Origin: Strigamia acuminata
Lineage: Eukaryota
Assembly (NCBI GenBank): GCA_949358305.1
Contig: OX442314.1
Location: forward strand, 16,740,001-16,804,000
Direction: 5' to 3'
Length of the DNA stretch: 64,000 bases
The position numbers were made by a program, and so were the translations under genes. Of the stretch, positions 7,081-58,400 are shown piece by piece. The stretch's first letter is position 1, and every line of letters begins with the position of its first letter. The notes under the pieces are model-generated. The model saw only the letters and a program-made list of their open reading frames with translations. It had not been told where the DNA came from and did not search any database.

Positions 7081-7527
7081 ACACCACAAATGGCCCCGAA
7101 AATAATCATGTCCGATTATGAACGTGCGATCCAAAATGCAGCGCAATGAGGATTTCCACGGGCAAGAATTTCAGGGTGTTTCTTCCACTTCACTCAAGCT
7201 GTATGGCAGCAAGTGCAAGAATTGGGTTTGGTTCTTTTTTTTCGTTCTAATGAGGATGTGCATGGCTCTTGCATTCTACCAGCGCCTAGAATTGTTGAAG
7301 GGTTAGAAGCTATTCGAAATTTTGTCACCACCGCTGGATTCGATCTGCCTGAATTAAACCGCTTATTTATTAGCATACATGGACCAGTTTTGGATGAACT
7401 GCTGGAGTTGTTATACGATACTCCAGAAGTCTTTTCAGTATATTCCTTAACTAGACGCACGAACAATAAGTTGGAAAGTTTCCACAGTGATTTGCAAAAT
7501 CGCAGTGGATTTCATAAATATGAATGA
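7081..7527 (+). pseudogene. Mutator/MULE transposase remnant
   Basis: Reads IIMSDYERAIQNA.*GFP...GCFFHFTQAVW (CxxH), then MALAF/LP across a frameshift, then FSVY...RTNNKLESFH. Contains an in-frame stop and frameshifts. CGCGACCAAAT repeats lie upstream at ~6918-6970. Confidence 0.85.
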
Positions 7528-20400: not shown

Positions 20401-21728
20401 AAATTTCATTTTACAAAATCTTTTCGTTTAGGGACAAATGTTGTTTGTATCAGAAACCGACGTTATTTTATTTCTTTGTTCACCAAGTGTTCTTAATTTG
20501 GAAGATCTCAACAAGTAAGTTATTTGAACGCAACGACATCGATCGTGGAAACTTGCAAATTAATATTGCTTTTTTTTAGACGTGGGCTCTTTTTATCTGA
20601 CATTCCTTTGCACGATGCAACTAGAGATTTAGTTCTGCTATCCGAACAATTTGAAGCCGAGTATAAATTAACACAAAACCTGGAGATCTTAACTGATAAA
20701 TTGCAACAGACCTACAGAGATCTAGAAGATGAAAAAAAGAAAACTGACAGGTTTTTAATTCAAATACTATACTGTACTATACTATGAACAGTTAATTTTT
20801 TAAATTTTTTTATAGATTACTCTACTCCATTCTACCGGCATCTGTTGCCAATGAACTCCGTCACAAACGACCAGTACCAGCGAGACGATACGATTCAGTA
20901 ACACTTTTATTCAGTGGAGTTGTCGGCTTTAGTGACTACTGTGCTCGGAATTCCGATGCCCAAGGAGCCATGAAAATAGTTCAGTTGCTCAACGACATAT
21001 ATACAACTTTCGATGTATTAACCGAGCCCAAAAAAAATCCAAATGTCTATAAAGTAAGACAATACTAAAACATGAATTGAATTGAATTTAAAAACGGTAT
21101 GCTTTTCTTTGAGGTTGAAACTATAGGTGATAAATATATGGCCGTCAGTGGATTGCCCGAACCTTGTGACTTTCACGCTAAATGCATCGCTAATTTAGCA
21201 TTGGATATGATGAGTCTTTCGCATAAGATTAAAACTGTCGAAGGAGATTCAATGGTAACTAGAATCAAAATATCTTGTAACCAATGGGCACCCAAAGTCG
21301 GGTTAATAATAAACTCAAAAGGCCCAAAGGCTGCAAGAAACCATAACCTTAATGCGTTAATATTATATTCTACATTGTTCAACAGCAAATCACTATTGGT
21401 ATACATTCTGGTGAAGTGGTGACGGGAGTAATAGGCCAACGAATGCCACGATACTGCCTGTTTGGAAACACAGTGAACTTAACCAGTAGAACTGAAACAA
21501 CTGGTCAAAAGGGAAGAATTAATGTATCGGATGATGCATACAAGTAAATAAAACAATTATAATTATAGTTGAGTTTATCCATATTTGACTTCACCCATTT
21601 GTAGACATTTGCAAGAACCTCAGAATCATGATCCAACATTTAAATTTTCCTACCGTGGTGAGATAACCATGAAAGGCAAGAAAGAGCCGATGAAGGTTTG
21701 GTTTTTGGAAAGAAAGCAACCGGAATAA
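17419..21728 (+). CDS. GUCY1B1: Soluble guanylate cyclase beta-1-type subunit, copy 1 (~607 aa)
   Basis: Exons 17419-17421 (ATG only), 17489-17562, 19336-19436, 19494-19768, 19839-19992, 20059-20360 (GC donor), 20432-20514, 20580-20750, 20816-21053, 21114-21254, 21386-21543, 21605-21728. Motifs [17 protein letters not shown] (haem His105), YYSER, Ile145, LFSGVVGF and [21 protein letters not shown]. Confidence 0.96.
17605..18198. mobile_element. Older pogo/Tigger-like non-autonomous element in an sGC beta intron
   Basis: Starts CAGTCGGACCTCGTTGTAAC and ends TTATAACGAGGTTCG. Many TTCGTTATA repeats. Related to 18769-18952. Confidence 0.6.
18769..18952. mobile_element. pogo/Tigger-like MITE
   Basis: Perfect 27-bp TIR CAGTCGAAACTCTTTATAACGAATCGC with TA on both flanks. 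Confidence 0.9.
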
Positions 21729-31283: not shown

Positions 31284-34200
31284 ATGGTAATATATATTCA
31301 ACTCTGTAATAAATAAAAAAAAATGCATCAATAATTCCTAATTGAATTCGTAGTACGGGTTTGTGATTTATGCTCTGGAGTTACTTCTAGTACGAAAGTA
31401 TGGCCCTGATACCTGGGAAAAAATTAAGTAAGTAAAACTTACATATATAGAAAAGTAATAGAGGTTATTGATGTTGTGCTAAACTGTGTGAACACAAACT
31501 TAATTTTGCTTACAGTATTTTATGTTAGTCCTATTAATTATCAATTAAATTTGTATTCGCAAAGCGAAATTATGTCGGTTAAATTAGCAATATAGAAATT
31601 GTTTTAAATTCAAACAGAATGATTAATCATCTGCCATGCCTGACCACTAGATTATGTTTACATTTTATTTTAATTTTAATAAAACATTTCTCTTTACTTA
31701 ACATAGTTAATTGGTGATTTCCGTATAATTACGAGACCTCATCCTCGACCTCGACTTGTTGTTTCAATCTATACGTCGCAGCACACATGCCTTCATTTCA
31801 GACAAATTCTAAAATAAAATAACAACAAATTAGCTGAATAATTGAATCATCGATTCGAATCAAATAAATGGTTTTAGTGCTTTCTTTGTTCACCATGGAT
31901 CTCGCAGCCATTTTGTTTCACTCGTAGGCTTTTCGTGCGTCGATCTGCGCATGCTGTAATGATTATTTCCGGTGTAAAGAAAACGAAAATTTACAAATGA
32001 CTGCAAAAAAATAATCCCAATGATAATTGCCGACGAAAGATATAAAAACTTAATGTTTCCCTCATTTCAGGAAAGAAGCGGCAGTAATAATGGAAGGACA
32101 TTTCATACTGCGCCTAAATTACGACGATGAAATAATGTACAATCTAGTAGCGGCTGCTGCAGTTGTTTTACGTAATTAATAAAATCAAAATCTTTACCTT
32201 TCTTTTAATTCAGATTAATGCAAATGTAGAAATACCAGCCGAGGAGATATTGGAAATGTTTGGTGGCATGTTTTTTGAATTCTGCATGGAGACCGGTTAT
32301 TATAAACTTATGAAAGCATTGGGTGGAACTCCGAGAGATTTCCTACAGAATCTAGATGCACTTCACGACCACTTGAAGAGCATTTGTCCGGGAATGCGAG
32401 GGCCATCGTTTCGAGTCAGCGAAAGAGTCGAAGACGGTGCGCTAATTCTGCATTACTATTCAGAAAGAGAGGGGCTTGAGCCAATTGTGATCGGAATAGT
32501 TAAGGCGAGTACACTTAGTGCATCACAATTTACGTAAACTTCAACCAAAAATGCTAACCATTTATTTAATTTTTTTAGTCTGTTGCAGAACACTTACACA
32601 ATACTGAAATTGATATGAAAATTCTCCGGACTGAAGAAGCTACAGATCACACACAATTTGTGATAATAGAAAAGAATAAACAGGAGCAAACTTCCAGTTT
32701 TGAATATGAAGAATTCGATACTTTGCCTAAAGGTTTATTTTTATTTTTATTTTTTATTTGATTATTCTTTTTATTCTTCTTTTTCGCTTAATAGAATTGT
32801 GCATCAGTCCTGCTACATTTGGTCGAGCATTTCCCTTTCACATAATATTTGATCGTGATATGATCGTTTGTCAGGCTGGAATTTCCATTGCCCGCGTTTT
32901 GCCTCAATTAGTTGGAGGAAATTGCAACATTACAAATATCATGGACATGACTCGTCCTCGTCTGGCCTTCACATTTAAGAATATACTTTCTCATATCAAT
33001 ACAATTTACGCTTTAGTAACGAAGGAAGAGATTTCTGTTTCACATGTCGATAAAAATACATCCACACCATTGAAATTAAAAGCGAGTTAATTTTTAAAAA
33101 TATTTGCAATTTGCAATTTCGAATGACAAAATCTTTTAATTTAGGGGCAAATGTTGTTTGTGCAAGAAACAAATGTTATTTTGTTTCTTGGATCCCCCAG
33201 TGTTGTTAACTTGGAAGATCTCAACAAGTAAGTTTTTAATAAAAAAAAAAGTCTTCGTCCTTACTTTGAATGCAGAGACATCTATCTAGTAAACTTAAAA
33301 GCTGCAAATATCAAAATCAATAACCTTTTTTTTAGATGTGGGCTCTTTTTATCTGATATTCCTTTACACGATGCAACGAGAGATTTAGTTCAAAAATCCG
33401 AACAATTCGAAGCTGGCTATAAATTAGCACAAAATCTGGAGATCCTAACCGACGAATTGCAACAAACTTACAGAGATCTAGAAGATGAAAAAAAGAAAAC
33501 TGACAGGTTATAATACAAGTAGTACAAATTTAAATGGAATATCATTTTTTTAAATTCTTTACAGATTACTCTACTCCATTCTACCGGCAACTGTTGCCAA
33601 TGAACTCCGTCACAAACGACCAGTACCAGCGAAACGTTACGATGAAGTGACATTGTTATTCAGTGGAGTTGTTGGCTTTAGCGAATACTGTGCTCGGAAT
33701 TCGGATGCTCAAGGAGCCATGAAAATAGTTCAGTTACTTAACGACATATATACAACTTTTGATGTATTAACCGATCCCAAAAAAAATCCAAATGTCTATA
33801 AAGTAAGACAATACTAAAGCATGAATTGAATTGAATTTAAAAACGATATGCTTTCCTTTGAGGTTGAAACTATAGGTGATAAATATATGGCTGTCAGTGG
33901 ATTGCCCGAGCCTTGTGACTTTCACGCTAAATGCATCGCTAATTTAGCATTGGATATGATGAGTCTTTCGCATAAGATTAAAACTGTCGAAGGAGATTCA
34001 ATGGTAATTAGAATCAAAATATCTTGTAACCAATAGGTACCCAAAGTCGGGTTAATAATAAACTCCTAAGCATAAACTTAATGCGTTAATATAATATTTT
34101 AAATTGTTCAATAGCAAATCACTATTGGTATGCATTCTGGTGAAGTGGTGACGGGAGTAATAGGCCAACGAATGCCACGATACTGCCTGTTTGGAAACAC

Positions 34201-41177: not shown

Positions 41178-42348
41178 GTATGTTTATCTTTTTTTTCTTC
41201 TTCCCTATCTTGAACAATTCAAACACTGGAGCGCCGTAAGTTTGAATTTTTGTCGTCTGCTATTCAAACCCGGAAAACTCGCCTTTTATTTTATCGCACT
41301 AAAAAAAAGAAAAAAGATATTTCTAATTTCTAATTGTTGTCTGCCTGACAGTACACACAAACAACAAAATAGAACTGAAAAAAAGCGAAAAAAAAAAATA
41401 TTACACAACCCCGTATAATTTATTTATTATTGTTGTTGTTAATATTCTTTTAAAAAAAACGCCATTATATAACAGGAAAAAGTTGTTTTTTAATCTATAA
41501 GGAAAATATACTTTCTACATAATAAGTATTAATGATTCTTAAGAGAATATCAACTAAAACTCCTAAGTAAATGTTAAATCTGACATTTGTAAACAAGGAT
41601 AATATTTTTATCTTTACTGCTCTATACAAACTAAGACGTATGACGTCATTCTTGACCTCCTCCAATACATTGCAATAACTGGTGGGATGGATTTGTATTC
41701 TTACACAATGTTTTGTAATAAAAATTAATTACAAAATTAAAAAATAAAAAATATCAATAATTTGAAATATTAATTTTATTTTAATTACTTAATTTTTATT
41801 GTAGAAATAACCTTAAAAAGAAAGATATTTTCTTTAAAAAAAAATCGTCTTGAACACATTTCAATCTAGGCCTCAGTTGTTTGGGTGAGTTAAAAATACC
41901 TCCCGCATTACGTCACAGGGCATATCTGTTAGTGGTATATCAGAGCAGGATGGGGATGGGAGCTCATTCGAGCCCGAGGCTTGCATGAGTTCACACTCGG
42001 ACCCTGCGAGACTGGAGTTGCACAGGACCCAAGTGAGTCACTGGTGAGTTGTGTGGTACAAAGTATTAAGTCTCCTCGTCATTATTTGATTCATAATGTT
42101 GGGAAAGTTTATCCATGAGTCCATTTCATTTCATACCCAGCCCAGTGTTTGACAGGCAATTTTTAGCTCCAAAAAAATGAGGGAAAAGTGGAGTACGTAA
42201 TTTATTTAAAGTTATTGTGGTTGAATTTAGATCCAGTTGACAGTGCCAAAAAAAACTGAAGGATTTTTTAATTTTTTTTTCTTTTTTAAATTTTTTTTTT
42301 TGGTATTAATTTTGAATTAATTTCTATTTGTAGTAAAAGCGCCTTCGA

Positions 42349-43163
42349 ATGTCCGGTGTCGAAGTGGAGTGTTGAAGTTCGGCGGTAGAAGATTGGCCTT
42401 GCGTCCACTCGTCATGCTTAGCGTGAGTGAAAGTCGTCGTGAAAGCCTTAAGCTGCCTTTGAGTCGAAGCCTGAGTGAACCAGGACCGACGAATGTAATC
42501 GTGGTGACCAGCACTTCAGCTCCGAGCAAGAAATGTAAACTGGAAGAAACCGTGTCGTTGCCAGCATCGCCCAATTCCGACCCTGCCATCAATTTCCGAA
42601 GCGTGATCAAAGCGAGCCGAGTGATGGAAGTGGGCGAACTGTCGAGACGAATCGTGGAGAACGGACACACGCAGAGCAGATCGTTTTTAATACTAGATTG
42701 CCGTCCTTTTCTGGCGTTCAACTGCGGTCACATCGCCGGTTCGATCAACGTGAATTGCAGCGATCGATTCAACCGGAAGAGATTGCAAGTCGGAAGGGCA
42801 ACGTTGGCCGATTTGGCTCCCTGCAAAGAGGCAAAGGACCTAATCAGACGTCGAACGTGTCGTGAGGTCATCGTGTGTGATGACTCCACTGCTGATTTGG
42901 ACAACCTGCATCAGAATCATCCATTGTTTCTTGTGTTGAGTGCATTGTGTGAAGACCAGAGGGATGCTGTCGTCCTTAAAGGTGATTGTTTTTGCTATTT
43001 CTTTTATCCGACCTCAAGTGTAATAAAATGGTGTAATAAAAGAGCGATTTGAGCCAAATTTAGGGTCTGCTCTAAATTTGGGATCATCTTGGATCGCTGC
43101 CCTACGCCGTTTAAAACTGATGAATAGTTTTGCATTTTATTTTCAATTAGAGATCATCTTTTT

Positions 43164-43194
<31 letters not shown>

Positions 43195-46100
43195 TCGATA
43201 GTCTGATACGGATGAGATCAATTTTGAGTCATTTTCAGCTGTTTCCAATTCGGCTGACTCATTTGAAGAACTTTTTACAGTATTTCAGTTTTGACTCATT
43301 TACGGCATTCGTTAAAGCAGCAGTTTTCTTCAAAACAAAAAGAAAATTATTTCTATTTTATTTTTAATTTTTTTTTTTGATTTTGATTTTTTTTTTGGAT
43401 TTTAAGGAATGGGTTATTGACCTAATGCCCTACAGCCTTCAGTGAAAATAGTCTGAGATGCTTTTTGACCTGACTTTGACCCATTTTTTGGTATTTGGGA
43501 AGGACATTTTTGAGAAAAGAACCTCCAAAAATGTTTGCCTTGACTGATTAATACGGTCAGGGATTGTGGTTTCACAGCTTTATTGCAAGTATCGGGCAAT
43601 TTGGATGTTGCGGAATAAAGGTCTAATCAAATAACGTATATTGCCTCGATTTAGCGCCCCAGTAAATGCGCGCTAATTGGATTAATCTGGGCACAAATTT
43701 TGGCAGCTAATCTGAAAATGGACAGTATTTTTCCATTGTGTTATGAGATAACCAAATGGAGTCGTTACTATGTACTATTGAGCCCTGAATGAGTATGGAT
43801 GTGAAAAAAATGGCTATTTGTGTAAATCCGATCCTGAAATAGCCAACTTTACTTGCTACCACCCATTTAAACCTATGACTAGGAGGAAAAGTATTGAGTT
43901 TGGAATCTGCTTTAGTGTTTTTGGCACGGGGGATCTAAAAACATTTGTTTTGATGGTGAATCATCAGACTGGGCATGCAAAACAAGACTGCAAGAATTTT
44001 TGCTTTAAAGTTCATGGGTCTAATACGCTAAACTAGGGGAGGCGAAGAAGAAATCTTTTCTGAATCATATTCATACCTTTGTTAGACATAAGTCCAAATT
44101 TAGCAGATGATCTAAACTGTGAAGGAATGACGATTGTTGAACTTCAAACTTTTTTATGAGGAATTATTTTATTTTTGTTTGTTTTTTATTGATTAATCGA
44201 TTTGGATTAAAGAGGTAAAAATAGAAAAATCAGGTCTGGGCTATTTACCGCAGATATTGCCCATTTAACCCGTTCTAGTCAATCATGGAGTTGGTCTATT
44301 CATTGATTCGCCATCTGCTGCCAATCAAATTAGGAAATAATGGCGAATTTAATTTACAACCCTTCGTGACTCATCATTATTCACACTTTGTGACGTCACT
44401 AAACGACAATGATATTTTGTCAAAAGTGCAAAAGGTAGACAAAGTTGTTCTCTTGAAAAATTAGCATTATAATGAAAGGATTTTTTTTTTCTCAACTGGT
44501 CGGCAAGGTTATTTATATTTTTATTTATTTATTTATTTATACTTTCTACATCTGATGTCATTTTTGAGTGGTGAGTGTTAGATCAAAGGATTTCCTAAAA
44601 GTGCAATGAACACGACCGTATAAGTCGAAAGTCGTTTGAGACTGCGTGGAGCCTCGTGTCATCTAACTTAAAAGACAAATTACCTCTTTAAATAAAAATT
44701 ATTTTTTTTCTAAAATTATTATTTAATTGATTTATTTTTATTTTTTATTTAAGGTGGGTGGCGTGAATTCAACAAACACTACGCACATTTATGCGAATCA
44801 AATACTGTTCAATCTCCGACGATACTTTGTTGCGATACGATGTCGTGCGACCCGTCACTAAACGAACCGGACATTGAAAACACACCAGCAACTCGCGTGC
44901 TTCCATTTCTCTTCTTGGGCAATGAAAGAGATGCGGCAGATTTGAAGGGGTTGTTGGATCTGCGAATTACGTGTATTCTTAATGTAACAGCTCATTTGCC
45001 CGGCTATCACGAAGAACAGGGGATCAAGTATAAACGATTACCAGCTTCTGACAGTGGTCATCAGAATCTCAAACAGTACTTCGATGAAGCTTTCGAATTT
45101 ATTGGTAAGTCAACTTTATTTATTTAGTATTAGTAATTTGTTGCAATTCTTTCCATAGAAAGAGACATTTCATTGACATGTCCAAATTGCACAGCTGCGA
45201 GTGCATAGCCGAACATTAATTATGTTTACGCCGCTTGTTTCCGGGTATCCGAAACCGAGTACATGCACGGGACCAATCCCTATGGGCATCTTGCAGGTTT
45301 CAGATACTTTTACAGCGAAATCTAGCAGGGGGAATCCATGCAACTGAGGATATAGCTGGAATTAACGGTTTCGGTTCCGTCCTTGCACACCTCTCTGCCC
45401 TATTTTTCTGTAGCAATGACTCGATTACAGATTTATCGCTGTATTTTTTATTTATTTCTGTTTCCTCATACACGTTTTTGAAGGTTAATGAATGGGTTTC
45501 GCAAGATTGGTTCGGTTGGGAAACCCTTTTTTGGGTTTCTAGTGTGTACTGTATGTGGTAATATAGTATACAGACCGATAAACAATTAAAACTAATCATT
45601 GCAGCTGTTGTCATCCATTCATTTTCCGGCAGATGTTAGTTTCGAAAGTTGCTTTCAAACTCCGTCATTATGACGTCAGGTAATTGATGCGGTATAAAAA
45701 AAATTCATAGACAACAATTTTAGATTCGGAGAAAGTTTTTTTCTCTCGCTCTCTTTACGGCCGAGTTGTCTTTTGCTTCGGTTTAGAACAGAGTTCAATG
45801 TCCCCTAAAATAAAATAAAAAAAAGTTTACGTTTGATGCAACCGCAGTGAGGTAGCCTTCCAATCCAAGCGAAGAAATGAATAAATGAAATTTATTTAAA
45901 TTGATTTTTATATTTCTTTTTTAATTTTTCAATGAGGAAGCTTTTAATTCGAATTGGGATTAGTGAATGGTCAGTTGATGAATGGAAGCTGTTGAATGGC
46001 AATGACAAGGTTTGTGCTGCTCGAATTTCCGGTGCATTTGTGCGCGGGCTAGAAGAAGGCTTCGAGTTTGAATGGACCGGAAACAGTAGCAATGATACCG

Positions 46101-49100
46101 TCGAAAGGCGACCGGTCCAGAAGTGGCAACAGATGGTTATGAAGGGGGAAAGGTGTAGTTCGCATGATAAAGCGGTTCCTGAATAGGGGGCTCGGCAAAC
46201 TAGACTCGGGTCGGCTTTTCAGTTTGCATTTGGCTTTTGTTCTGTGTCCATTGAAAGTTGCACGCGTACCGCGGAACAAAAGTAATATGACATCATCGCA
46301 GATTAGGTGACGTAGTTGTGAATTGTAATTGGCTTGATGGGGGTCTACCGATGAAGGGGGTGCTGGCTGACTCATACCCACAAAAAAGAAAGCAAAATTT
46401 GTTTTGGGTCGAGTCGTGACAGTTGACAATTAGTTGCATTTTGCTTGTTTGTTTGGTTATTTCGGAGGTTTCGTGCGGCCGGAAGTGTCCGTCGTTGACC
46501 GGAACAGTGGATTTCCTCTTACGATTGGGTGTGGTTAACGCGAGAGGTTCCTCAGCCGTAAACAAGATTCTTAATTTGTGGAATTAGACACCCATCCTTG
46601 TGAGTCAGCCACTTAAGTTGAAAAAGTGAGCTAATAAGATTCTTCGTTTTTAATTTGTCTCGCTAAAAATTGTTTACAGCAAATTTTAAGTTTGAAAATT
46701 TGATTACGGGAAATTTTGTTGCGAGTTGTTTTCGGCTTTATTATTATTTTGAAGTATTATTATTATTTATTATTATTATTGGTTTTTATGGAGGCCTAAA
46801 ATGCACAATTTATCTTATCGTAAGTTGATAAGATGGCGACAAGGTGGCGGCGATATTTTTTTTTGTTATTTGTGCCATGTAAACAGACCGAGTGCATTAT
46901 GAGGCAGATTTGATCCATCACCTGTAACACGATGATTCAATCAGTGAGTCACTACACGTGTGCAACAAGTGAAAAAAAGTTGATAGCAACAAGTCCTCGG
47001 TATCCTCCTATCGCGTGTATTTTGATTGATATATTTGAATGTATAAACAATATATTTTGAAGAAGTAAAAAATGAATTTGGTGATTAAATTTCTGAATAT
47101 TAATTTCAAGTAGATTACACCGAGTATGCTTTGACCAAACAGTTATCAATAATTCTAAATTCGCTTTTATATTCGCACTACGTAATTTCGTGAGTCATGC
47201 GCTAATCTCGTCATGCATGACCTTCACAAAGTCGCCATTTTTAATTTTTTGCATGATAATTGAGTGCGAAAAAATTAGTAAATCAGTGGGTGTAGTGAGA
47301 TTGTGAGGGGTGTGCATTGATATCAATGAGATTAGAAACAAGAGTGGGGGTGTTCTCAGGGCTGATGTTGTGCAATTGGCCAGTTAATGGAGCAGAACTT
47401 TTTAATTTATCTTGATTTCCGTTGTGAGAGGTTTTTAGGTCATAGAAATGAGCAAATCTATGTTCATGACCTCACATGAATTATAATTCAATCTGGGATT
47501 TTTGTCAGGAGATGAAGATAGAATTTTTCTTTATTTTTTTTTATTATTTTTTTTTTTTACTAAAGAAAATAAAATAAAAATAAAAATATATAAAAAAAAG
47601 CAATAAAAACGGGCGGTAATGAAATAAGTTTGTACTTTTTATGACCTTGACTGGTGGTAATCTTATGAAAAGTGAGTCATTCTGTACTGTAAAACCTTCA
47701 AATAATAACAAGGAAAATGGTTGAGAGCAAAAAAAAGAAATTGTTTACTTTTGTTCTGAAAAATGTTGTGTAATTGGCGTTGGATTGTAAAGTGATATTA
47801 TTGTTGACTACTGATTGGGTTTGGTTATTTTTAGTTTGAGATTTTTCGAAGAACGAAAGCAAAAAATTGTAAACAAATAATAGTTTTATGTTGATGGTTC
47901 GTTAGATTCTGGTATGATGTTGTGGTTTCGAATTGTATGGCTGCTTCCTGTGGGCTGCGGGTCACCCAGGAATGGTAGAATGAGTCATAGTGAGTATGGC
48001 GGACAGATGGTTGCCATGCAACTTATAAAAGAAATGAACAGCTGGCTTTTTTCCAACTTAGCCCTTCCCTCTACATCAATTTCCATGGTGTGAAGTTTTT
48101 ATTTACAAATTAACTTTATTTTTGCCTATTAAAATTTAAAAAAAGTGGGCGGATAAATTGAAATAAATTCCATCAAATATGTGAATGTGTCTGTTGTAAC
48201 CTTTTGTGGACATGCATGCTAAATAATGGCGTGTTGACTAATCAATAAAGAGGGGAAAAACAAACATGTTAAAGTGCAACTAAAATTTTTTTTTGTTTTT
48301 ACCATAAAAATGTAACAAAAAAATGTAAATTTAGATTTAAAAATTCTATTTAATTGTGAAATACCTTTTTAACAATTTGTTTTTGGTAGCAAAAAATGCT
48401 CCATCTTGATTTCCTGCATGATTCATTCCAGTTTTTTTCCCCAATAATTTTTCAATATCTTTTTCCTGATTCATAAATATCCCCTTGGTACTAATTTATT
48501 TTTTATGAAAAAAATAACCGTCACTAAATGACTAAGGAAATTAATGAAAATAAAAAGGGGTGCTGGGAGGAGGTATATTATCAACTGGACTTGATTAGGA
48601 GGTGAGGGTAACTTTTTTTATTCCCCCAACTCATTTTTTTAAATCCAATATTCGAACCCCTAACCCATTGGGTATAAATAAAAAGCGCAATAAATATATC
48701 GCCGCAGCCAAAGGGGTCGATTTAATACGCCAAAGTTTATTCGCAGAGGTGGAATTTTTTATTTTTTCATTTGTTTAGGTAACTGGAAATTATTAGGAAC
48801 CTCAGCAGGGATGTGAACGTACACTTTAACGTGGCTTTGATTTAATCTGTGATGTCAGCACCTTCAGACCCATGAGTCAACCTATTCACCATCTGCCCGA
48901 GATGAAGTACTGACGTCATTTTATGTACAATAACAGCGAGTGCATGAGAGACATAATACTGGCCAATAATGAAGAAGTGGATTAGGGGTTGGTCATCTCG
49001 TTGTGTCAATTTGACGACCCTCCCATGCCGTGATCAAAAGCTAGTTTAGCACTAAATGGCAAAGTTTGTTGCAAACATGGCCGGCAGTCGTTGTTTTTAC

Positions 49101-50230
49101 GGCGCTTTGGGCAAATATTACGTCAAAATGTTAAGAGATGTCGTTAAGTAGGAAGTTGTTTGGGCTTTGGGTTAGTTTTATTTGACTTCCGCTCGGTTTG
49201 ATTCTGATTAGGAAAATGTGTTGAGTGGTTGGCATAGAATTTGGGTAATTTAAAATTATAAAAAAAAAATTGTAGGTTTTGTAAATCATGGAAAAAATGT
49301 GTAGGAAATCAAATGGATTTAATCTTCCGGGTGACTGGGAACGTTTAAAATGAGGTCAGAAATGTATTTCTTGCATGAGTTGCTACACTTCCTTGAGTTT
49401 TGGAAATGTTTTTCCTAATTGATCAATATCCTACGAAAGGATCATTCCCCTTGAATCAAAATCGTCGCAAATTTTAGCGGTATTACGTTAAGAAATGTCC
49501 GAAATATTGCGTGATGTAAACTTACACGACGGTTAAACGTGGGGAATATTTCCTGCTTATTGTGAATTTGTTGCTCACGTAGAAAACAAAAAAACCCGGT
49601 AGGAATTCCTGTTGTATGAGTTAGAAAACTCCTGAAAATCGGAAAAATCTTTGACTGCATGCGTGTAGTTGCCAGCTTCCTGTTTGTTAGATTCATTTGC
49701 GTCTGTTTTGTGTGCATTTTTGAGTTTTAATGACTTCTTTTCGTGTTAGGGTAATGGCTTTTTGGCCCTTTAGCTCGTGTTCGCGTGCTAATTGCTTAAA
49801 CCAGGTTGGTTGAATGAGTTTTCTTGGGGTCTTGCAGTTGTCATTAAAGTTGAGATGTGTTGTTTTGTGTCTGATTTGTGTTGAAACGAATTTTAATGTT
49901 TGTTTCAATGTATTTGCAGATGAGGCCCGACGAAATGAAAACAACGTGCTTATACATTGCCAGGCGGGCATTTCCCGTTCACCCACCATAACCATTGCCT
50001 ACATCATGAAACACACATTAATGAACATGGTAGACGCGTACCGAATGGTGAAAAACAAACGTCCAATCATATCACCTAATTTCAACTTCATGGGCCAATT
50101 GTTGGAGTTCGAACAGAATCTTCGCAGCAGCCAAGATGATCCTGAGTGCAAACCTTGTCGTCAGTGTGTGTGGACAGACTCGAATTCAGTTACTGACTTG
50201 TCGCAGTGTGGTAAAACGTGCAGTGTTTGA
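42349..50230 (+). CDS. DUSP10: Dual-specificity MAPK phosphatase, DUSP10/MKP5 type (rhodanese + DSP domains)
   Basis: Coding exons (42349 or 42414)-42981, 44754-45104, 49920-50230. Motifs [56 protein letters not shown]. The start is ambiguous: the ATG at 42349 is 1 nt out of frame and the first in-frame ATG is 42414. Confidence 0.93.
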
Positions 50231-51272
50231 GTGTGTTGTATAGTAAATGCCCGAGCAGTCGAGTATTGTCTTCCTCCTATTATCAGCTTTAGCATCTACC
50301 AGTCGATGTTTTTGTTTTTCCAAAGGCCCTAGTCCACTTTTTATTTAATTTTATTGTTTCTTTTAAATTTCTATTATTGTAATTGTTGGCCAATGTATAC
50401 AAAGATCCACAAACGGTCGCTTTTAGGTTACTAGAAGTTTAGATCGACTGGCTTTCATTAGCGCTCATTGCCGACATGTTGGATGAGCGTGGGAAATATC
50501 ACGTGATGTATACGTTTTAACTGAGCTTACAAGTCGGACATGAACTAGTCGACTAGCGTTGAAACGGAGTTTCCCGTAGTCAATTTTTTAAATATTGTTA
50601 TTAGGCCTAATGTAATGGAAATTTAAAAGTCGAAATGTCAGTAAGCAGCATTCAATGGCCTTTATCAATTACGACTGCAGAATTTGCAGAGAAATAACTG
50701 AAAAGAATCAGTATTTTCCAATATTTTTTTGTGACAACTTCCTTATTATATCACTAGGGCTTCCTTTTTTTATTACATTTGTCAGAGCAGTACTTAATTC
50801 TGTGCCTTAAGTTGGGCAAATGTTATTACTACTGATGTGCATATCTGGTGAAAATAAGAAAGACTTAACAAAATGAATAACCTTCTCTGAAAAAGTGCTC
50901 ACATTTATGGGGTTTCTTTTGTTTATTTCTAGTCTGGTTACAACTAAAGTGCCTGTGAAAGGATAAAACAAAAACCTCGAGTCATTTAATATTTTTATTG
51001 TATTTTTTTTTTATCCTGGCACATTTTTCAATGAAAAGTTGTATTTTTAGATTTATTTTTCGTGTTTGTCTGAAAGAAAAAAGTACAAAGCTATTCTGTA
51101 ATGTGTATGCAAGGAATACTTTGAACACTTGTATGCTGATTGTAGTGTGTTTGAAAAATGAGAACTTTATACACCAATATATTATTAAATTATGAACATT
51201 TCTGTATACTACTCGTGTTCATTTATTACATTGACTTATGGAAACGTTTAAATTACAGCAATACGATGAATG

Positions 51273-54200
51273 TTATTTTGCTGACCTGCTAAAAAGAAAA
51301 CTTAAGGATCAACACATTGTATCGTGGGTATAATGGTAAGTTGGATGCATACCAGTGAGATGCAATGTTAAACACGGAGAGAATCGACAAGCCTAACCCA
51401 ATTCCCAAAATGCTTCCTATGTCACTGATGAGTGCATGGCCCGTGTATTTTTGGATTTCCAAAAGATGTTCAATATAATTGGTTAGAAGAAAGTTTGAGA
51501 CAATGGTTATTACTTTGGTGGGGTGTTCTTCTGTCACGACACTAGACGTGACAATAGTTTTAGTACAACTCGGTAAACAATGGCACGACTTGTACGCGTC
51601 ACTTCTCATATAAATGTCAACATATTTGTGCTGCGATTGCAATGATGAACTGAAGTTGGTACACATTGGAATGTAGATGTCAAAATTAGTCATATAAGGT
51701 AAGCTGTAGGTACATGAAAAGAAAGTGCGCTGTAGAACAATATGATTGCTGATTGGTTCTAAAGAAAATATTTGGATTTTTTTGCCTTGTGTTGGAGAAA
51801 TTGGTTCTGAAATGGGGCAAGGTGTTCTAAATTTATAAGGCTCTAGCTAGGAATTTTTGTTACATTGTTTCAACCAATTTGGTCATGGATGACCATTTTA
51901 GAAATTCTAAATGCTTAATTTGTGCCTGGAATTTTATTACTTCGAATTCAAACTGCATCATTACTGTACATGCTCAAAAATTAAAGAGAGTTAGTGTGTT
52001 TTGTTTCTGATTATAAACGTTGAGTGCAGCTAGTGTCTGCTGTTTCTTGAACACATTAATTATTTATTGTGTTGACGTGTCCAGGCTAGAATGTACAATT
52101 TGAATTTAGCATCAAATTAGGACTACTAGTTTGTGTTCACCAGTATAGAACCATTTTTAATAATAGGTTGGTGTCTTTGTCTACTATTTTCCATCATTCC
52201 CAGCAGAGAAGAGAGGTTCAACTATTAGGGAAAACTATAGGAAAAGTATCTGTTGGGTAGTTCCTTTAATTTATAAGAGATACTGATAGTCTGTAAAATC
52301 AGTTTAGCATTCAAAAATTGAATTCAGCTAATGTTTACATTTGGTAACCAAAAGATACTTTTGAGATATATTAAGTTCTTTTAATTTTGAAGCTTGGATG
52401 CTCTCACTGGAGCAGATTCCAGGTAACAACAGTTTTATTTATACTTGGCGATACTGTACGGAAGCTTACCGACAAGATAATTGTTCCTGTAATTTTTGTT
52501 TTAGACATTGTTGAAGGCAATTTAAATGTATCTTTTTATCCGTGCATCTATACCGAGTGATATTTAGTTGAGTCATCTGAAAAATTTCCAGATAATGTAC
52601 AAATTTAAACATTTTCGCGATTCTCGTGCGACTCGGTTACTGCTTTCCGATAAGAAACAAACACAATCTGACAAATTAAGCGGATACACCACTGTTTGGT
52701 TCCACTGCAGCCTCCAATACAGCACTTGAGTTTATTTATTTTCAACATTGAATCAAGAAGCTTAAAAAAATACCTTTTTTATTCGTATGTATACGATACT
52801 TCGGGTGGCTCCCTGCACGTCTGTTGCCGTTGACAAATCTATATTTTCATCAGGTGAATTTAAGATGTACTAATAAAGTTAAAAAGATAATTTTAAAATT
52901 TTTGCCTCTTCTGGCGCAGATTTTCTTAATTTTACCCAAAACGTATGTTTATCGCAAAAAAAATACTTTGGAAATGGAAGCAACTGCAATGACAATCCTG
53001 TGGTTGCACCTGTATAGTTAACCGGTGTTGTATGTAGTTGAGTACACTTGCCGTATAACAGCATTGCCGTTGTTTTGGTTGCATTGAAATCTACAGGTGT
53101 TCCTCCTGTATAATGCTAAAATTACAATAATGTGATGAATATGTGTATTATCACTGTGACACTTGTTTACTTTAAATGTATCGCTAACGCTGACCGCTGA
53201 ATGAATAGAAAGATCATTCCAGATACGATCTGCTGGATTGATGTCGTCAATAAGTTGCAGATGATTAATTTGTTCACATCCCAATACTTTGTTGCCATTA
53301 GCTTTACGCTTTAGTTTATGTATACGTGAAGATTCGCCACATATAGTTACTATAGGAAACTGGACCTTTGAAAGTCGAAGTATGTCAACTGACGATGTCG
53401 TCGGTTCATTCATGTAGTACTTAGTGCGCCAATACAACATGTAGACAGTCAAACCAATTAGCAAACTGATAGTTATTATTTTTACTGCATGTAAAATGGA
53501 TTTGTTATTTTGCTGAGATAGTTTTCTTCTAATTTTACCAATCTTTTTTACTAAACGCAACTGTCTGGTCGTTCTCCAATATTTTCGTTGTTTACGTATG
53601 ATTCTCACAATCATAAAACATTCTATTACAGACAGCAATGATAGACCCATCGTAAGGCCTAAAGTTCCTCCAATTTCCGAAAGCAAAGAGATTATATCAA
53701 ATGACAAATGTTGAATATAAGCAGTGATTTCTTTATCTCGAAAGTAAAAATTGAAAATCAGTTCGTGTCCAGCTATACGAGTGCTCTCTATAGTTGGTTC
53801 ATAAGAATATTCAACACATTTTTTTATGCATCCACAATCACGTTCTGGGTATTTTTTTGTGTGAAAAATTGACAGTAACTTTAAGAACAATTCGGAAATC
53901 TCGGGATTACTGAGCGTGCACTCGGGTAAATTAGATGTAGCGAATGGAAACCTTTTAAATATTCACAGATATTAAAGAAGAAGTATGTAACTAATGATGC
54001 ACAATTGTTTTAAAATAATACTTACTTGCAATTAAGTTTTCTATGCATCCTGTCAATACAATCTTTGAAACATTTTGCATGGTCTTTAAAACTAACACAG
54101 TGTGACTTTGGAGTATCAATTAATGAGTACTAAAGTAGTAAGTTGCAAAGGAAAATATATTTTCAGGATAAAATGCATTAAAAACGAAAAAAACAACTTA

Positions 54201-54725
54201 ATTTACACAGCTTACTTTTAAATAAGTAAAGGTAACTCTTTTTTCAGAGCCTGAAGCCACCGGATATGAAATTTTGGCAATAGTTGCATCTCCGATTTGT
54301 TTTACATAAATCTATAAAATTATGTTGGTTCAAAATGTTAAGATGTTAAACCTAATTATGAGAACCCACCACATAGCTGTGTTCATTACAGAAATCTTTA
54401 TTCTTCTTTGCATACATTACTTCAAATGAACTGCCTTGATAAGACGGCATCCAAGGATTAACTGTATGCAAGTTTAGAAATAAATTTAATGCACAATACC
54501 AAAACGACACTCGCGTGTTTAATACCAAAGCGAAATCGTGTTGTGATTCCCAAGTCAGCAGCTAGGACTTCATCTTGAACTATTTTCAAATGTGAAATTT
54601 TCTGTTTCTGTAAGAATAAAAAGAAACGTAAATTATAACTCAAACTGGGCTATTGTACATACGTATACAGGGGCGGATCTAGCTTTTCGGGGGCCCTGGG
54701 CTCGAGGTCTTTTCGGGGCCCCTTT

Positions 54726-54765
<40 letters not shown>

Positions 54766-55401
54766 TACATTGTCTTGTTTCTTGGGGCCCTCCTAGGATT
54801 TGGAGGCCCTGGGCTCAAGCCCTAGTAGCCCTTATGTAGATCCGCCCCTGTACGTATATACAATATTCTGCAAGCTTACTTTTCTAACTTTAAATGATTG
54901 CATTGCTGTTGTAATGTTAGTTGCGTTCCATATTTCCTTTAAAGTTACATCTGGAGGAATGGTTTTTGCCTTCATTAAACTAAGTAGTGGGTTAACGCAG
55001 TTAATATTAACCAAATCTGCAGGCCGGACATCTAAATTTGACCTGTTCCATAAGTCAAACATTGCATCTGTGTCGTATGCCGCAATGTCAAATGCTGGAT
55101 GATCAAACTCTTCTGATGTTTGAATAACATCGACAACTGTATGGTAATCGAAGTAATAACTTGTTCTGACGAACGTTTGATATCCAAAAAATAAAATACA
55201 AACGCACAATGTAGCAACGAAAATACATTTTAAAGGAACAGGAACTTTCTTCTGAGTGAGTAAACTCAATCCAGAAATAGGAAAATCTGCCAAACTTATT
55301 TCTTTTTGAGATTGAGTTACAATTCGTCGGATTAAGGCTTTCGAACGAAGTTTTTTGTCTAAACAGTTTGGTTTAAAAGGTTGAAATACATATTTCTGCA
55401 T
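51273..55401 (-). CDS. DEG/ENaC (pickpocket/ASIC-like) protein with two tandem channel units (~800 aa)
   Basis: Exons 54880-55401, 54526-54607, 54370-54461, 54216-54311, 54026-54129, 53171-53951, 52936-53105, 52774-52869, 52470-52576, 51352-51703, 51273-51288 (or read-through to the stop at 51289). Two TM1 plus HPAFDI/FPIVTIC segments, two Cys-rich thumbs, and two TM2 segments (SEIGGTLGLTMGLSLLSV; SDIGSILGIGLGLSILSV). The 53171/53105 junction is 1 nt out of phase. Confidence 0.85.
54668..54850. mobile_element. hAT-type MITE in DEG/ENaC intron 1
   Basis: TIR CAGGGGCGGATCTA/TAGATCCGCCCCTG, a perfect 8-bp TSD TACGTATA (54660-54667, 54851-54858), and an internal poly-T tract. Confidence 0.93.
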
Positions 55402-58400
55402 TTTTCTACATATAGCCAGAAGACAACTCAGACAATTATCGTGTGGTATGAGCTTATAAATGCAAAAACAATGATAAATATTTAATTTTATTTCAAATTG
55501 AAAAAAGTGCTCACAAATTTTAGATCAAAGTTTTGATAACAAATTTTTGCTAAACTTCTGTGTGGGTGTTAATACATAAGTAGCTTGACTAAAAAAAAGA
55601 AACATCATGTTGATATAAACAGTATTAACCGTAGAAAGAATTATACCCATAAATTTTTTAAAAGAAAGATCTTATTTTGTTGCCTCTTTAGTTCCCATCA
55701 GTTCGCATATTCTTTAATAAACCAGAATAACAAAAACGAAGGAATTTACGCATTATGCACATTATCGTTTTTAATAACGATTAGTTTCAAAGCACAATCT
55801 TTTTAAAAATCTCTTATGGACAAGATTGCAAGTTACGATTTCAGTTGTGTATCGTTATGTGAATACAGGTGCATTAGATTATGGTTCGGATAACACTGGT
55901 CAATATTAATTGACAATTTAACCCTTTTAATTATTGCTTCAGCATCTAACTAGTGGATGTTTTTGTCTTTCTAACATCTTTAGTTCAATTTTTATTTTAC
56001 TTTATGTTTTCTTTTAAATGTATATCACAGGTAGCTTAACCTGTGTTTAAGTTTAATCACAAAAACGGTCGCTTGCAAGTTAGTGGGAGTAAGAACGACT
56101 GGTTTTCATGCGCGCTCATGCCGACAGTAAAATAACAAAGCATAAAAATCAGCGAGACGCCCATACGAAAATTTGCTGGTATTTGAGTATAAATATGGTG
56201 ACTCAGCCCCACGACTATTTTCCCTTAGGCTAGTGGAGGTCAATGATGAGGAAAAAAAGGGGCGAACCCTTTTTTATGGTGATGATAGTCATTGCTTTTA
56301 ACCTAATCTATCGAGAGGAAAAAACCTTTCCATTTTCACCAAAATGGCCCATAAAAGCATTCTTAAAATATTAATGTGTTAAAACTATTTATTCTCATTG
56401 ATCTACTATACATCAATTTCCAAATAAATGTTTAAAATACAATTTATTGCTCTTTTTTGGTTTGGTTTCGCCCTACATGGAAATATCCGTGGTGTTATAT
56501 TTGATTTTCAGCAAATGTCTATGGAATGGATTGCTGTGATTTCAAAACCAACACTGCATTTCGGCTATAGCTGCATTCAGTCGTGTTTTTGGTGTTGTGC
56601 TTTTGGTTTGTGATTTTAAAAAATACAAAAAACAAAGAAAAAACACTTAAAACTCGGCTTTATGAATGCAGCTGCTGATAAAAGAGTTTTTGATACATGA
56701 AAGGTGTGCTTTATGTTAGGTATTTTTGAGTATTTTTGTCAATTCTAATATGCGTGCAAATACTCTTCACATGTGAATCCCACTTTTAGATCCTGATCCT
56801 GTGGGGGGAAAAGAGGGGGAACTGAGTACTCTAGAGGGGATAAACGAAGGATATGAGTACAGGGAATAAATGATCCGTGCAGGGCGACAATCCACGTTTG
56901 CGTTCCATCAGTGTTGGGAGAACCAACTGTTGGTAAAATCAATGACTGGGGCAGCGGCCTTGGTGCTGTAATGAGGTCCATGATGTGTCATAGCTTGGCG
57001 CTGAGTCATCCTAGTGTTGAGAGATTGCTAGATCTGACCTATTTTTGAAAATTCTTAGGTGTAATTTTCTACTTAATCATGAAAACTATGGCTTTGCTTT
57101 TTAGTTCAAGCTTAGCAAAATTTTTTTTTGAAATTTGCAAAATATTTTATTGATAAAGTGCATCGACTGTGCAGTTCAGTTCAGTTAGGTTGAGATTAGC
57201 CTTAATCGCCGGTTGCAGTGCGCAAATGTTTTGCTGTAAAATCAATGCTCTCTCAGAGTAAAGGAACGTCGATATAACTGATGACATCACACTGGCGTGC
57301 ATGTAAGATACATGACTCATGCCAAATGCATGATAAAGACAGATTTTTTATTTATTTCTTCAATTTTTTTTTTGCTAAATGCTATGGCAATGAATTTACT
57401 GTATGTCTGACCTATTTTGTCTTTTTTTTAAAATTTATTATTTGTTAAATTCTTGCTGTATGTTTATAAACCCACAAAGTATGATCTCAACAGTATGACA
57501 GATTCTTCATTTTTTATTTCCATGATAAAATGAAATAAACTGTCCACATTTTGTTTGTTTTCTTATCTATCGCACTATTAAACATATAAAATAATGTTTG
57601 GACAATATTACATTTTGTTTTCAAACTCATCGGAACCTTGTGAATGCAAATTGTAATTTAAAAAATTCCATTCGTTGAGTCGTTTCTTCATATCCTTTAT
57701 CTCTTAACCTTACTAGTCGCAAGATATGCATGTTTGGAAGCTGCTGAAGCAGAGTATATAGACAAAGTAAACCTAGTGTGTGCCTTAATCCAAATGACCT
57801 CACCTCTTTGATAGATTGTATGTCAAACGTCATCACTAACAGCTCATCAGTGATGTGTACAATTCGTTAATCCTTCTTACTCTTGAGCACGAACATTTCT
57901 GACTAATTCTTGTACTCGTTTATCATCTTCTGGGCAATCAAACCTGGATACGAGAGATTTGTCTGATGACGTGTTCAATTGGTATTAAAATCTCATTAGT
58001 AGATACAATTTTAAGTCCCAAAAGAGTTGGTTGATATTATGACTCAGTTTGACCAAACTGAAAGGGACCAGCTTTTATCTCTCCCCCAACTTTTTCAAAC
58101 GAACTAACAGATGCCTATTAGTGGGGGCTGTTTGCTACTGGCGAATTACTCATAGGGCAACCAATGTAGAACAAAGTTGATGACACATACCTATTCTATT
58201 CATCTCTGAGATCATAGACTTGGACTGACATCACAATCTTCTGCAGGCACATTATAATCGTCTAATTACTTGTAAACAACTTAATGATGTTTATTTATGT
58301 TCGTGCACTCAACTAACGCTAGTTTGGACTATGAATTCAATCATTTATTTTTTAAATTTAACAAATTAACTTTAAATTTTTGTGGATGCATTGTCAGAAA

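What the first reader, a model, noticed from the sequence alone, without database searches (positions are those of the whole stretch)
51273..55401. Naturally concatenated two-subunit DEG/ENaC channel in one polypeptide
Seen: the single exon 53171-53951 has no stop. It carries the thumb end and TM2 of unit 1 (CGCIKKC..LLSEIGGTLGLTMGLSLLSVIE), a basic ~35 aa linker (RKQRKYWRTTRQLRLVKKIGKIRRK), and TM1 plus the post-TM1 motif of unit 2 (KYYMNEPT..VQFPIVTICG). Unit 2 ends in its own thumb and TM2 in the last large exon. Four intron positions recur in both units (after FK, after HSYV/HTFW, after YLK/IKK, and phase 2 after CK/CR) although the sequences are strongly diverged. This points to an old tandem duplication followed by fusion. 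Known: DEG/ENaC subunits have two TMs with cytoplasmic ends and assemble as trimers, so a fusion is topologically feasible. Inference: a 4-TM dimer cannot fill a trimer evenly, so it would need a third monomeric partner, linker cleavage, or cross-linked trimers. I do not know a characterised natural example but cannot exclude one.
Basis: partly seen in the sequence, partly recalled or inferred. Interest (0 to 1): 0.88.

Follow-up and report, generated by a model that had tools for sequence, protein, structure and literature searches.

The report
Centipede ion channel with fused subunits
A centipede gene carries two different subunits of a normally three-part sodium-channel family back to back in one reading frame, as do at least 21 database gene models of its family, so it is predicted to make a ready-linked two-thirds of a channel that likely needs a separate third subunit, a layout I did not find described in print.

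Summary
Exon 53951-53171 is stop-free and runs TM2, a 36-residue basic linker, then TM1. An 11-exon GT-AG model gives 808 residues, four TMs and two DEG/ENaC units about 23% identical. Contigs of two DNA runs match the junction exactly. It is not a one-off. 21 other proteins cross the same junction (15 looked up, all Strigamia maritima gene models). All first units form one clade (97/94) and all second units another (97/95). The window's two units are rejected as sisters (AU p=0.0003). One old A-B fusion therefore preceded a family expansion. Unit B has a systematically altered pore helix. The closest characterised relatives are the centipede homotrimers BRTNaC1 and PDPNaC1. Best reading: an obligate A-B tandem completed by a monomer (2+1 trimer); this assembly is inferred. 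No transcript was available, so expression of the fusion is untested. A separate three-unit single-chain form exists in a shrimp and two unnamed records. Ten literature searches, three weakened by a failed term, found no description. The scan's index holds no earlier report of this layout.

The parts
54880..55401 (-). Exon 1: start codon, cytoplasmic N-terminus with pre-TM1 Gly in register with the HG motif (His replaced by Ser), TM1 of unit A (about 55251-55165), start of the extracellular domain
   Evidence: tblastn to paralog P0014 residues 7-119; Pfam ASC 14.5 bits, below cut-off
54526..54607 (-). Exon 2 (unit A extracellular domain); ends in phase 1; this intron has no counterpart in unit B
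   Evidence: predicted from frame and GT-AG only
54370..54461 (-). Exon 3 (unit A); ends at the intron shared with unit B exon 7
54216..54311 (-). Exon 4 (unit A, 96 nt; counterpart of exon 8)
54026..54129 (-). Exon 5 (unit A thumb start; phase-2 end; counterpart of exon 9)
53171..53951 (-). Exon 6, the junction exon: thumb end and TM2 of unit A, linker, TM1 and start of the extracellular domain of unit B, all in one open frame
53606..53686 (-). TM2 of unit A: canonical pore helix (GG pair, G-x-S filter, acidic 18' position)
53498..53605 (-). Cytoplasmic linker, 36 codons, 15 Lys/Arg and no Asp/Glu; no in-frame ATG, no poly(A) hexamer, T-poor (0.20) unlike the short introns (0.33-0.49)
53429..53497 (-). 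TM1 of unit B; no HG-like motif in register before it
52936..53115 (-). Exon 7 (unit B); spliced model matches S. maritima T1JNY9 (P0001) across exons 6-9 at 68% identity
52774..52869 (-). Exon 8 (unit B, 96 nt)
52470..52576 (-). Exon 9 (unit B thumb start; phase-2 end)
51353..51703 (-). Exon 10: thumb end and TM2 of unit B (about 51438-51353); G-x-S kept, second Gly of the GG pair is Ser, 18' position is Asn
51273..51288 (-). Possible short last exon with stop codon; alternatively read-through to the stop at 51289
   Evidence: unverified

Best explanation
The gene holds two different DEG/ENaC subunits (A then B) in one open frame and is predicted to make one four-transmembrane protein that likely fills two of the three positions of a trimeric cation channel, with a separately encoded monomer likely supplying the third. 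Shown: the open frame, the two units, the A and B clades, the conserved basic linker and the A/B pore asymmetry. Inferred: one ancestral fusion of already different A and B genes, then duplication of the whole A-B cassette at least 20 times. Inferred: the linker is A's C-tail joined to the remnant of B's N-terminus; two paralogs still keep B's re-entrant-loop motif and most have lost it. Inferred: fusion fixes the A-B pairing and order. A keeps a canonical pore helix while B acts as a modified structural or tuning subunit. A canonical-pore monomer of the same centipede clade (BRTNaC1-like, e.g. S. maritima T1IGW0) would complete a 2+1 heterotrimer. A sensory role (pH, temperature or chemicals) is a guess from the antennal relatives BRTNaC1 and PDPNaC1.
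For: 29 of the 150 best phmmer hits carry TM2 followed 80-150 residues later by the post-TM1 motif; 21 of them belong to the window's A-B family. 15 of those 21 were looked up and all are S. maritima UniProt models. TM2-to-post-TM1 distance is 106 in the window and 103-131 in the 21 paralogs; all 21 linkers scored (window plus 20) are net basic. The model aligns end to end with P0008, P0011, P0014 and P0004 (E 1e-41 to 1e-60). Careful mixture-model tree of 40 rows: 13 of 13 first units form one clade (97/94) and 15 of 15 second units another (97/95), with a mirrored top split; none of 500 label shuffles was as low. The AU test rejects the window's two units as sisters, p=0.0003. TM2: Gly at the fourth motif position in 22 of 22 A units against 1 of 7 B units; acidic 18' in 16 of 22 A against 1 of 7 B; the 8 monomers checked look like A (8 of 8 and 6 of 8). 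E18' and the HG loop shape the lower pore in ASICs (PMC7062507, PMC7308080, abstracts). AlphaFold2 of paralog P0008 gives two complete folds joined by a helical hairpin (pLDDT 73.9, pTM 0.69); each half matches ASIC-type chains and the best match is BRTNaC1 (Z 20.8, rmsd 4.0, 325 aligned). The closest solved relatives are trimers (PMC12714832 passages). PDB titles list a human beta-gamma ENaC dimer and trimers completed by delta or a second beta. Engineered head-to-tail ASIC1a dimers pass current (PMC4529235 passages).
Against: No RNA or protein evidence for the fusion here or in any paralog I could trace; every centipede junction-spanning hit looked up is an automated gene model, and I could not see their DNA. 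Two family models (P0021, P0056) skip part of the junction, so annotation is not uniform. No third subunit was identified and none lies in the window. P0115 looks like a stand-alone B-type subunit with an intact pre-TM1 motif, or else a truncated A-B model; its source was not looked up. A+B as sister clades has only 85/77 support. Branches are long and many rows are fragments. The fold is of a paralog, without a control, and I could not inspect how its two units pack; the window's own junction fragment folded poorly (pTM 0.24). Engineered dimers work without an added monomer and show cleavage products (PMC4529235), which fits the rivals equally well.
Confidence: 0.55

Rival explanations
1. The fused protein is real and self-sufficient. 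Two chains build one trimer with one unit left outside, or three chains build two linked trimers (A-B-A plus B-A-B), which would cluster channels.
For: Engineered ASIC1a dimers are functional alone in oocytes (PMC4529235 passages). Six units divide evenly into two trimers. No partner gene lies in the window.
Against: B's pore helix is altered in 6 of 7 cases, which makes a two-B trimer a doubtful pore. The linker is short (about 30-57 residues) and is modelled as a helical hairpin. Canonical monomers exist in the same clade.
Confidence: 0.2
2. The gene makes its own third subunit. Alternative splicing or cleavage of the basic linker releases an A-only (or B-only) monomer that joins full-length A-B, or all three subunits end up as monomers.
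For: A 58-nt GT-AG interval at 53608-53551 would put a stop directly after TM2 of unit A. Its length matches the gene's short introns (55-86 nt), and its site scores (1.8, -1.1) lie within the wide leave-one-out range of the true sites. The linker is rich in Lys/Arg.
Against: That interval is T-poor (0.21) and GC-richer (0.40) than all 7 short introns, and its sites do not rank among the top 12 of 124 exon-internal GT or 117 AG sites. The linker is cytoplasmic, away from secretory-pathway convertases (established knowledge). No well-matched A-only full-length protein was among the 106 other hits classified; the 18 weak A assignments score 59 bits or less.
Confidence: 0.11
3. Two neighbouring genes are transcribed or translated separately, and the open frame is a vestige or a shared annotation artefact.
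For: No transcript was seen. A stop-free in-frame gap has about a 3.6% chance at one locus. The closest S. maritima model (T1JNY9) is annotated starting only after TM1 of unit B.
Against: There is no in-frame ATG between TM2 and the end of TM1 and no poly(A) hexamer in the interval, so B has no start of its own. T1JNY9 lacks TM1 and TM2 and is a fragment. Linkers with little sequence identity stay open, basic and of similar length in 21 paralogs, and the A and B trees mirror each other.
Confidence: 0.1
4. [quoted passage not shown]
For: An even number of units fits a dimer of dimers; PMC4529235 (passages) argues for ASIC1a tetramers from cross-linking.
Against: The closest solved relatives have three chains per entry (BRTNaC1, PDPNaC1, PMC12714832). 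The independent three-unit single-chain proteins fit a trimer exactly.
Confidence: 0.04

Closest known systems
BRTNaC1 (Scolopendra subspinipes mutilans; PMC9974506; PDB 8YMR/8YMW)
   Same: Best PDB hit by sequence (E 7e-10) and by fold. It lies in the same branch of my tree (97/96) and has a similarly compact subunit of about 430 aa.
   Different: A single 431-aa two-TM subunit with an intact HG motif that forms homotrimers; only 23-28% identical to the window's units; not an ortholog. Heat gating was not tested for the window's protein.
PDPNaC1 (same centipede; PMC12714832; PDB 9JF7)
   Same: Antennal centipede DEG/ENaC; third-ranked fold match (Z 19.6).
   Different: 421-aa monomer, homotrimer. 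It was not included in my trees.
Heteromeric ENaC, ASIC2a/3 and PPK heterotrimers
   Same: Fixed or preferred unequal stoichiometries: ASIC2a/3 1:2 (PMC10329638 abstract); a beta-gamma ENaC dimer plus a variable third subunit (PDB titles); PDB 9PZN/9PZO list one chain of one type per two Pickpocket 26 chains.
   Different: Every subunit is a separate polypeptide; here two are genetically joined.
Engineered ASIC/ENaC concatemers (PMC4529235, PMC10329638)
   Same: Head-to-tail joining through cytoplasmic ends, with four or six TMs; functional in oocytes.
   Different: Laboratory constructs that keep full termini plus an added linker. Here the join is natural and old, and B's N-terminus is trimmed.
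Naturally repeated channels such as Nav/Cav, TPC and K2P (recalled, no call)
   Same: Subunit-sized repeats fused in one chain, with divergence between the repeats.
   Different: These fill a four-fold pore with whole numbers of chains; two units cannot fill a three-fold pore evenly.

Membership tests
DEG/ENaC superfamily (per unit) | Pfam ASC PF00858 above the gathering score | tested here: met
   Exon-6 frame 68.6 bits in 2 stretches, exon-10 frame 28.5 bits, cut-off 23.6; exon 1 alone 14.5 bits
DEG/ENaC superfamily (per unit) | Two TM helices flanking a large extracellular domain | tested here: met
   Four hydropathy peaks, two per unit; paralog model has two full folds
DEG/ENaC superfamily (per unit) | Cysteine-rich thumb | tested here: met
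   Thumb cysteines of both units align with BRTNaC1 and paralogs
DEG/ENaC superfamily (per unit) | G-x-S filter motif in TM2 | tested here: met
   Present in both units
DEG/ENaC superfamily (per unit) | Trimeric assembly, cation current, amiloride block | not testable with these tools
Canonical one-subunit DEG/ENaC chain (not filed under this) | One two-TM subunit per polypeptide | tested here: not met
   Two units in one frame
ASIC-type pore-forming subunit (not filed under this) | His-Gly re-entrant loop before TM1, plus GG pair and acidic 18' in TM2 | tested here: not met
   Unit A has Ser-Gly, GG and Glu18'; unit B has no motif in register, GS and Asn18'
BRTNaC1-containing centipede clade | Groups with BRTNaC1 against other DEG/ENaC hits | tested here: met
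   97/96 in the 40-row tree with 4 outgroup rows; 99 SH-aLRT in the 87-row tree; outgroup sampling limited to hits
BRTNaC1 orthologs (not filed under this) | Sister grouping with BRTNaC1 and high identity | tested here: not met
   23-28% identity; BRTNaC1 sits with other monomers
BRTNaC1 orthologs (not filed under this) | pH-dependent heat activation | not testable with these tools
   Needs electrophysiology
Strigamia A-B tandem family (defined here) | First unit in the A clade, second unit in the B clade, basic linker with TM2-to-post-TM1 distance of 103-131 | tested here: met

The most novel reading that the evidence does not exclude
Arthropods have repeatedly hard-wired DEG/ENaC stoichiometry into the gene. 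Geophilomorph centipedes have a large sensory family of obligate A-B tandems that act as fixed two-thirds scaffolds taking an interchangeable third subunit. Independently, shrimp-type crustaceans have complete single-chain pseudo-trimers with three position-specific repeats, the trimeric counterpart of four-repeat Nav/Cav channels.
Probability: 0.5. Interest if true: 0.88.

Novelty: new variant of a known kind. Interest (0 to 1): 0.76.

Why it matters
The DEG/ENaC channels in the papers and structures I saw are built from separate two-TM subunits, and concatemers appear there only as laboratory tools. A natural tandem kept through a 20-fold gene expansion would show that subunit order and ratio were worth fixing genetically. 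It would give a natural test of trimer versus tetramer or cross-linked assembly, and of how much each position contributes to the filter, the HG loop and the 18' ring. It also predicts why many invertebrate DEG/ENaCs stay silent when expressed alone, and it warns that curators who split double-domain models as annotation errors may be removing real genes. The three-unit crustacean proteins would be ready-made asymmetric channels for structure work.

Tried and rejected
No whole genome is held for this window, so paralogs and a third-subunit gene in this species could not be sought. No RNA holder was listed; this says nothing about expression. Word-seeded searches for longer homologs of exon 6 and of alignment A1 returned nothing, although phmmer found such proteins, so these blanks are uninformative. 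A search with P0010, made in the hope of transcript-derived relatives, returned 3 proteins, all S. maritima UniProt models. The fold of the window's junction exon alone was low-confidence and was not searched. The complex prediction (A-B plus monomer) was not available, so there is no verdict. The ESM Atlas query with P0096 gave only generic ASC clusters. A third unit up- or downstream in the window is rejected: 0 of 304 tblastn HSPs fall outside 51200-55500. Recent internal duplication within this gene is rejected by the AU test. My first exon model had wrong boundaries at exons 3, 7, 8 and 10 and was corrected. P0021 was first treated as a monomer but carries A's TM2 at its N-terminus. Tree handling: segments under 120 aa were left out; one non-channel tail was dropped; four rows were trimmed; only 28 of the single-unit hits entered the 87-row tree. 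In 19, 32 and 55 the term 'DEG ENaC' matched none of the listed papers, so they are weak. Three earlier scan notes concern separate neighbouring genes or a crossover chimera and did not bear on this.
Full report
Observation. The minus-strand frame 53962-53021 is open for 314 codons and matches Pfam ASC in two stretches. An 11-exon model with ten GT-AG introns gives 808 residues, no internal stop and four hydrophobic segments. Its two halves are 23% identical and share four intron positions and phases. The first of these lies after FKVRK rather than FK. Contigs of two DNA runs from one study cover 47602-54692 without a difference. No RNA run was listed. None of 304 tblastn HSPs from the 153 stored proteins falls outside the gene, so there is no third unit in the window. 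The linker has 15 Lys/Arg and no acidic residue in 36, no in-frame ATG, no poly(A) hexamer, and a base composition unlike the gene's short introns. A stop-free, in-frame gap of that size has about a 3.6% chance at one locus.

Relatives. phmmer of exon 6 against 1.84 billion representatives gave 256 hits at E up to 0.001, of which the best 150 were listed. 29 of these 150 carry TM2 followed by the post-TM1 motif. 21 of the 29 form one family with the window's gene. The 15 that I looked up are all uncharacterised Strigamia maritima UniProt models; six were not looked up. A S. maritima fragment (T1JNY9) is 68% identical to unit 2 over 215 columns and supports my splice model for exons 6-9. The window therefore most likely comes from a centipede close to S. 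maritima (inference). The TM2-to-post-TM1 distance is 106 here and 103-131 in the 21 paralogs, and the linkers are net basic. The whole model aligns end to end with four paralogs.

History. I cut multi-unit proteins into units and built trees. In the 87-row tree, the 27-row tree, the careful 40-row mixture tree and a 36-row tree, first units (A) and second units (B) each need only one change. Support is 97/94 and 97/95, and the top split within A mirrors that within B. The window's A and B are rejected as sisters (p-AU 0.0003). One fusion of already distinct A and B subunits was followed by duplication of the whole cassette. A+B as sisters is weaker (85/77), branches are long, and many rows are fragments. 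Two paralogs keep a Pro-Gly motif in the linker, in register with the HG motif of BRTNaC1. The window's B and most others have lost it, while the window's A keeps Ser-Gly. This suggests the linker is A's tail plus a shrinking remnant of B's N-terminus.

Pore asymmetry. The fourth position of the TM2 motif is Gly in 22 of 22 A units and 1 of 7 B units. The 18' position is acidic in 16 of 22 A units and 1 of 7 B units. Eight monomers resemble A. In ASICs, E18' sets sodium preference in the lower pore (PMC7062507, abstract) and the HG loop lines it (PMC7308080, abstract). Both window units keep G-x-S. B looks like a specialised subunit, not a decayed one, since its thumb cysteines and fold are intact.

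Structure. The window's junction fragment folded poorly. The complete paralog P0008, folded with a 27-row alignment, gave pLDDT 73.9 and pTM 0.69, with TM2 of A and TM1 of B joined by a helical hairpin. Both halves match DEG/ENaC chains, best BRTNaC1 and PDPNaC1. The pTM hints at a defined packing of the two units, but I had no control and could not view coordinates. The A-B plus monomer complex could not be predicted, so the assembly is untested.

Mechanism. I rank a 2+1 trimer first (0.55): A-B supplies two neighbouring positions and a canonical-pore monomer of the clade supplies the third. Reasons: the nearest solved relatives are trimers (PMC12714832 passages); B's pore helix argues against two B units in one pore; such monomers exist in S. 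maritima (T1IGW0, T1INH1); and ENaC structures list a beta-gamma dimer completed by different third subunits (PDB titles). Rivals are self-assembly with a dangling unit or linked trimers (0.2; engineered ASIC1a dimers conduct, PMC4529235 passages), a self-made monomer by a cryptic 58-nt intron or cleavage (0.11), separate genes (0.1) and a tetramer (0.04). P0115, a B-type sequence with an intact N-terminus, may be a free B subunit or a truncated model. A sensory function is extrapolated from BRTNaC1, a heat- and pH-gated antennal channel (PMC9974506, parts 1-2 of 5 and passages), and PDPNaC1.

Other multi-unit forms. Halocaridina rubra KAK7013173.1 (P0145) and two unnamed Logan proteins (P0065, P0096; about 1270 aa on contigs of 4.4-4.7 kb) each have three units. 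These group by position, and within-gene grouping is rejected (p-AU 4e-10 for P0096 and 0.0004 for P0145; P0065 was not tested). This is an independent, old single-chain trimer layout. A second S. maritima group (P0002, P0003, P0007, P0018) has two or three closely related units. Polypedilum P0017 has three units that group together and may be recent or a merged annotation. P0039 is another unnamed two-unit protein.

Literature. Ten searches (three weakened by a term that matched none of the listed papers) found no description of natural multi-subunit DEG/ENaC chains. Term searches in the main text of the S. maritima genome paper found no mention of ENaC, degenerin or pickpocket. Term searches or passages of PMC5203786, PMC8438182, PMC7067487, PMC5952958, PMC10148893, PMC9822975 and PMC10507113 found no such report. 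PMC8438182 notes 46 of 578 insect PPKs with three to five predicted TMs without interpreting them. PMC10329638 was seen as abstract only. No supplements were read, and most subscription journals are outside the library. The double-domain models themselves already sit in UniProt, uncharacterised.

Verdict. The feature is real at the DNA level and family-wide in gene models, a new architectural variant of DEG/ENaC. I put the chance that the fused chain is made at about 0.85-0.9. Its assembly and stimulus are open and directly testable.

Noticed in passing
P0145 (Halocaridina rubra KAK7013173.1), P0065, P0096, P0152, P0153: Three DEG/ENaC units in one chain of about 1270-1290 aa. Units group by position across species, and the unnamed records lie on 4.4-4.7 kb contigs with little room for introns: a candidate natural single-chain trimer.
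   Followed up: partly
P0002, P0003, P0007, P0018 (S. maritima T1IZL2, T1IU28, T1ITG7, T1IL99): A second, separate multi-unit group with two or three closely related units per model; possibly a younger, independent concatenation or merged tandem genes.
   Followed up: partly
P0017 (Polypedilum vanderplanki KAG5672929.1) and P0039 (unnamed Logan contig, 3.3 kb): Further three-unit and two-unit DEG/ENaC models outside the centipede clade; in each, the units group with one another.
   Followed up: partly
window 54668-54850 (intron 1): 183-bp MITE-like insertion with 14-bp terminal inverted repeats and an 8-bp target duplication (hAT-like, label recalled). Summed contig depth in its bin is about 33,600 against about 370 in the flanks in run X1, so it is a high-copy family.
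   Followed up: partly
window 53608-53551 (minus strand): A 58-nt GT-AG interval that, if spliced, would end the protein right after TM2 of unit A and yield an A-only monomer; weak site scores and un-intron-like composition.
   Followed up: partly
P0115: 410-aa B-clade sequence with an intact pre-TM1 motif: a free B subunit or a truncated A-B model; source not looked up.
   Followed up: partly
window 42321-50230 (+): Dual-specificity phosphatase gene (Pfam DSPc on the last exon; MAPK-phosphatase type by recalled motifs) ending about 1 kb from the channel gene's stop, tail to tail.
   Followed up: no
window 1383-1988, 19475-21419 and 32151-33814 (+): Exons that look like a soluble guanylate cyclase alpha gene followed by two tandem beta-like paralogs (read from translations; names recalled, not tested).
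   Followed up: no
window 7150-7524 (+): 125-codon frame resembling a MULE-type transposase fragment (label recalled, not tested).
   Followed up: no
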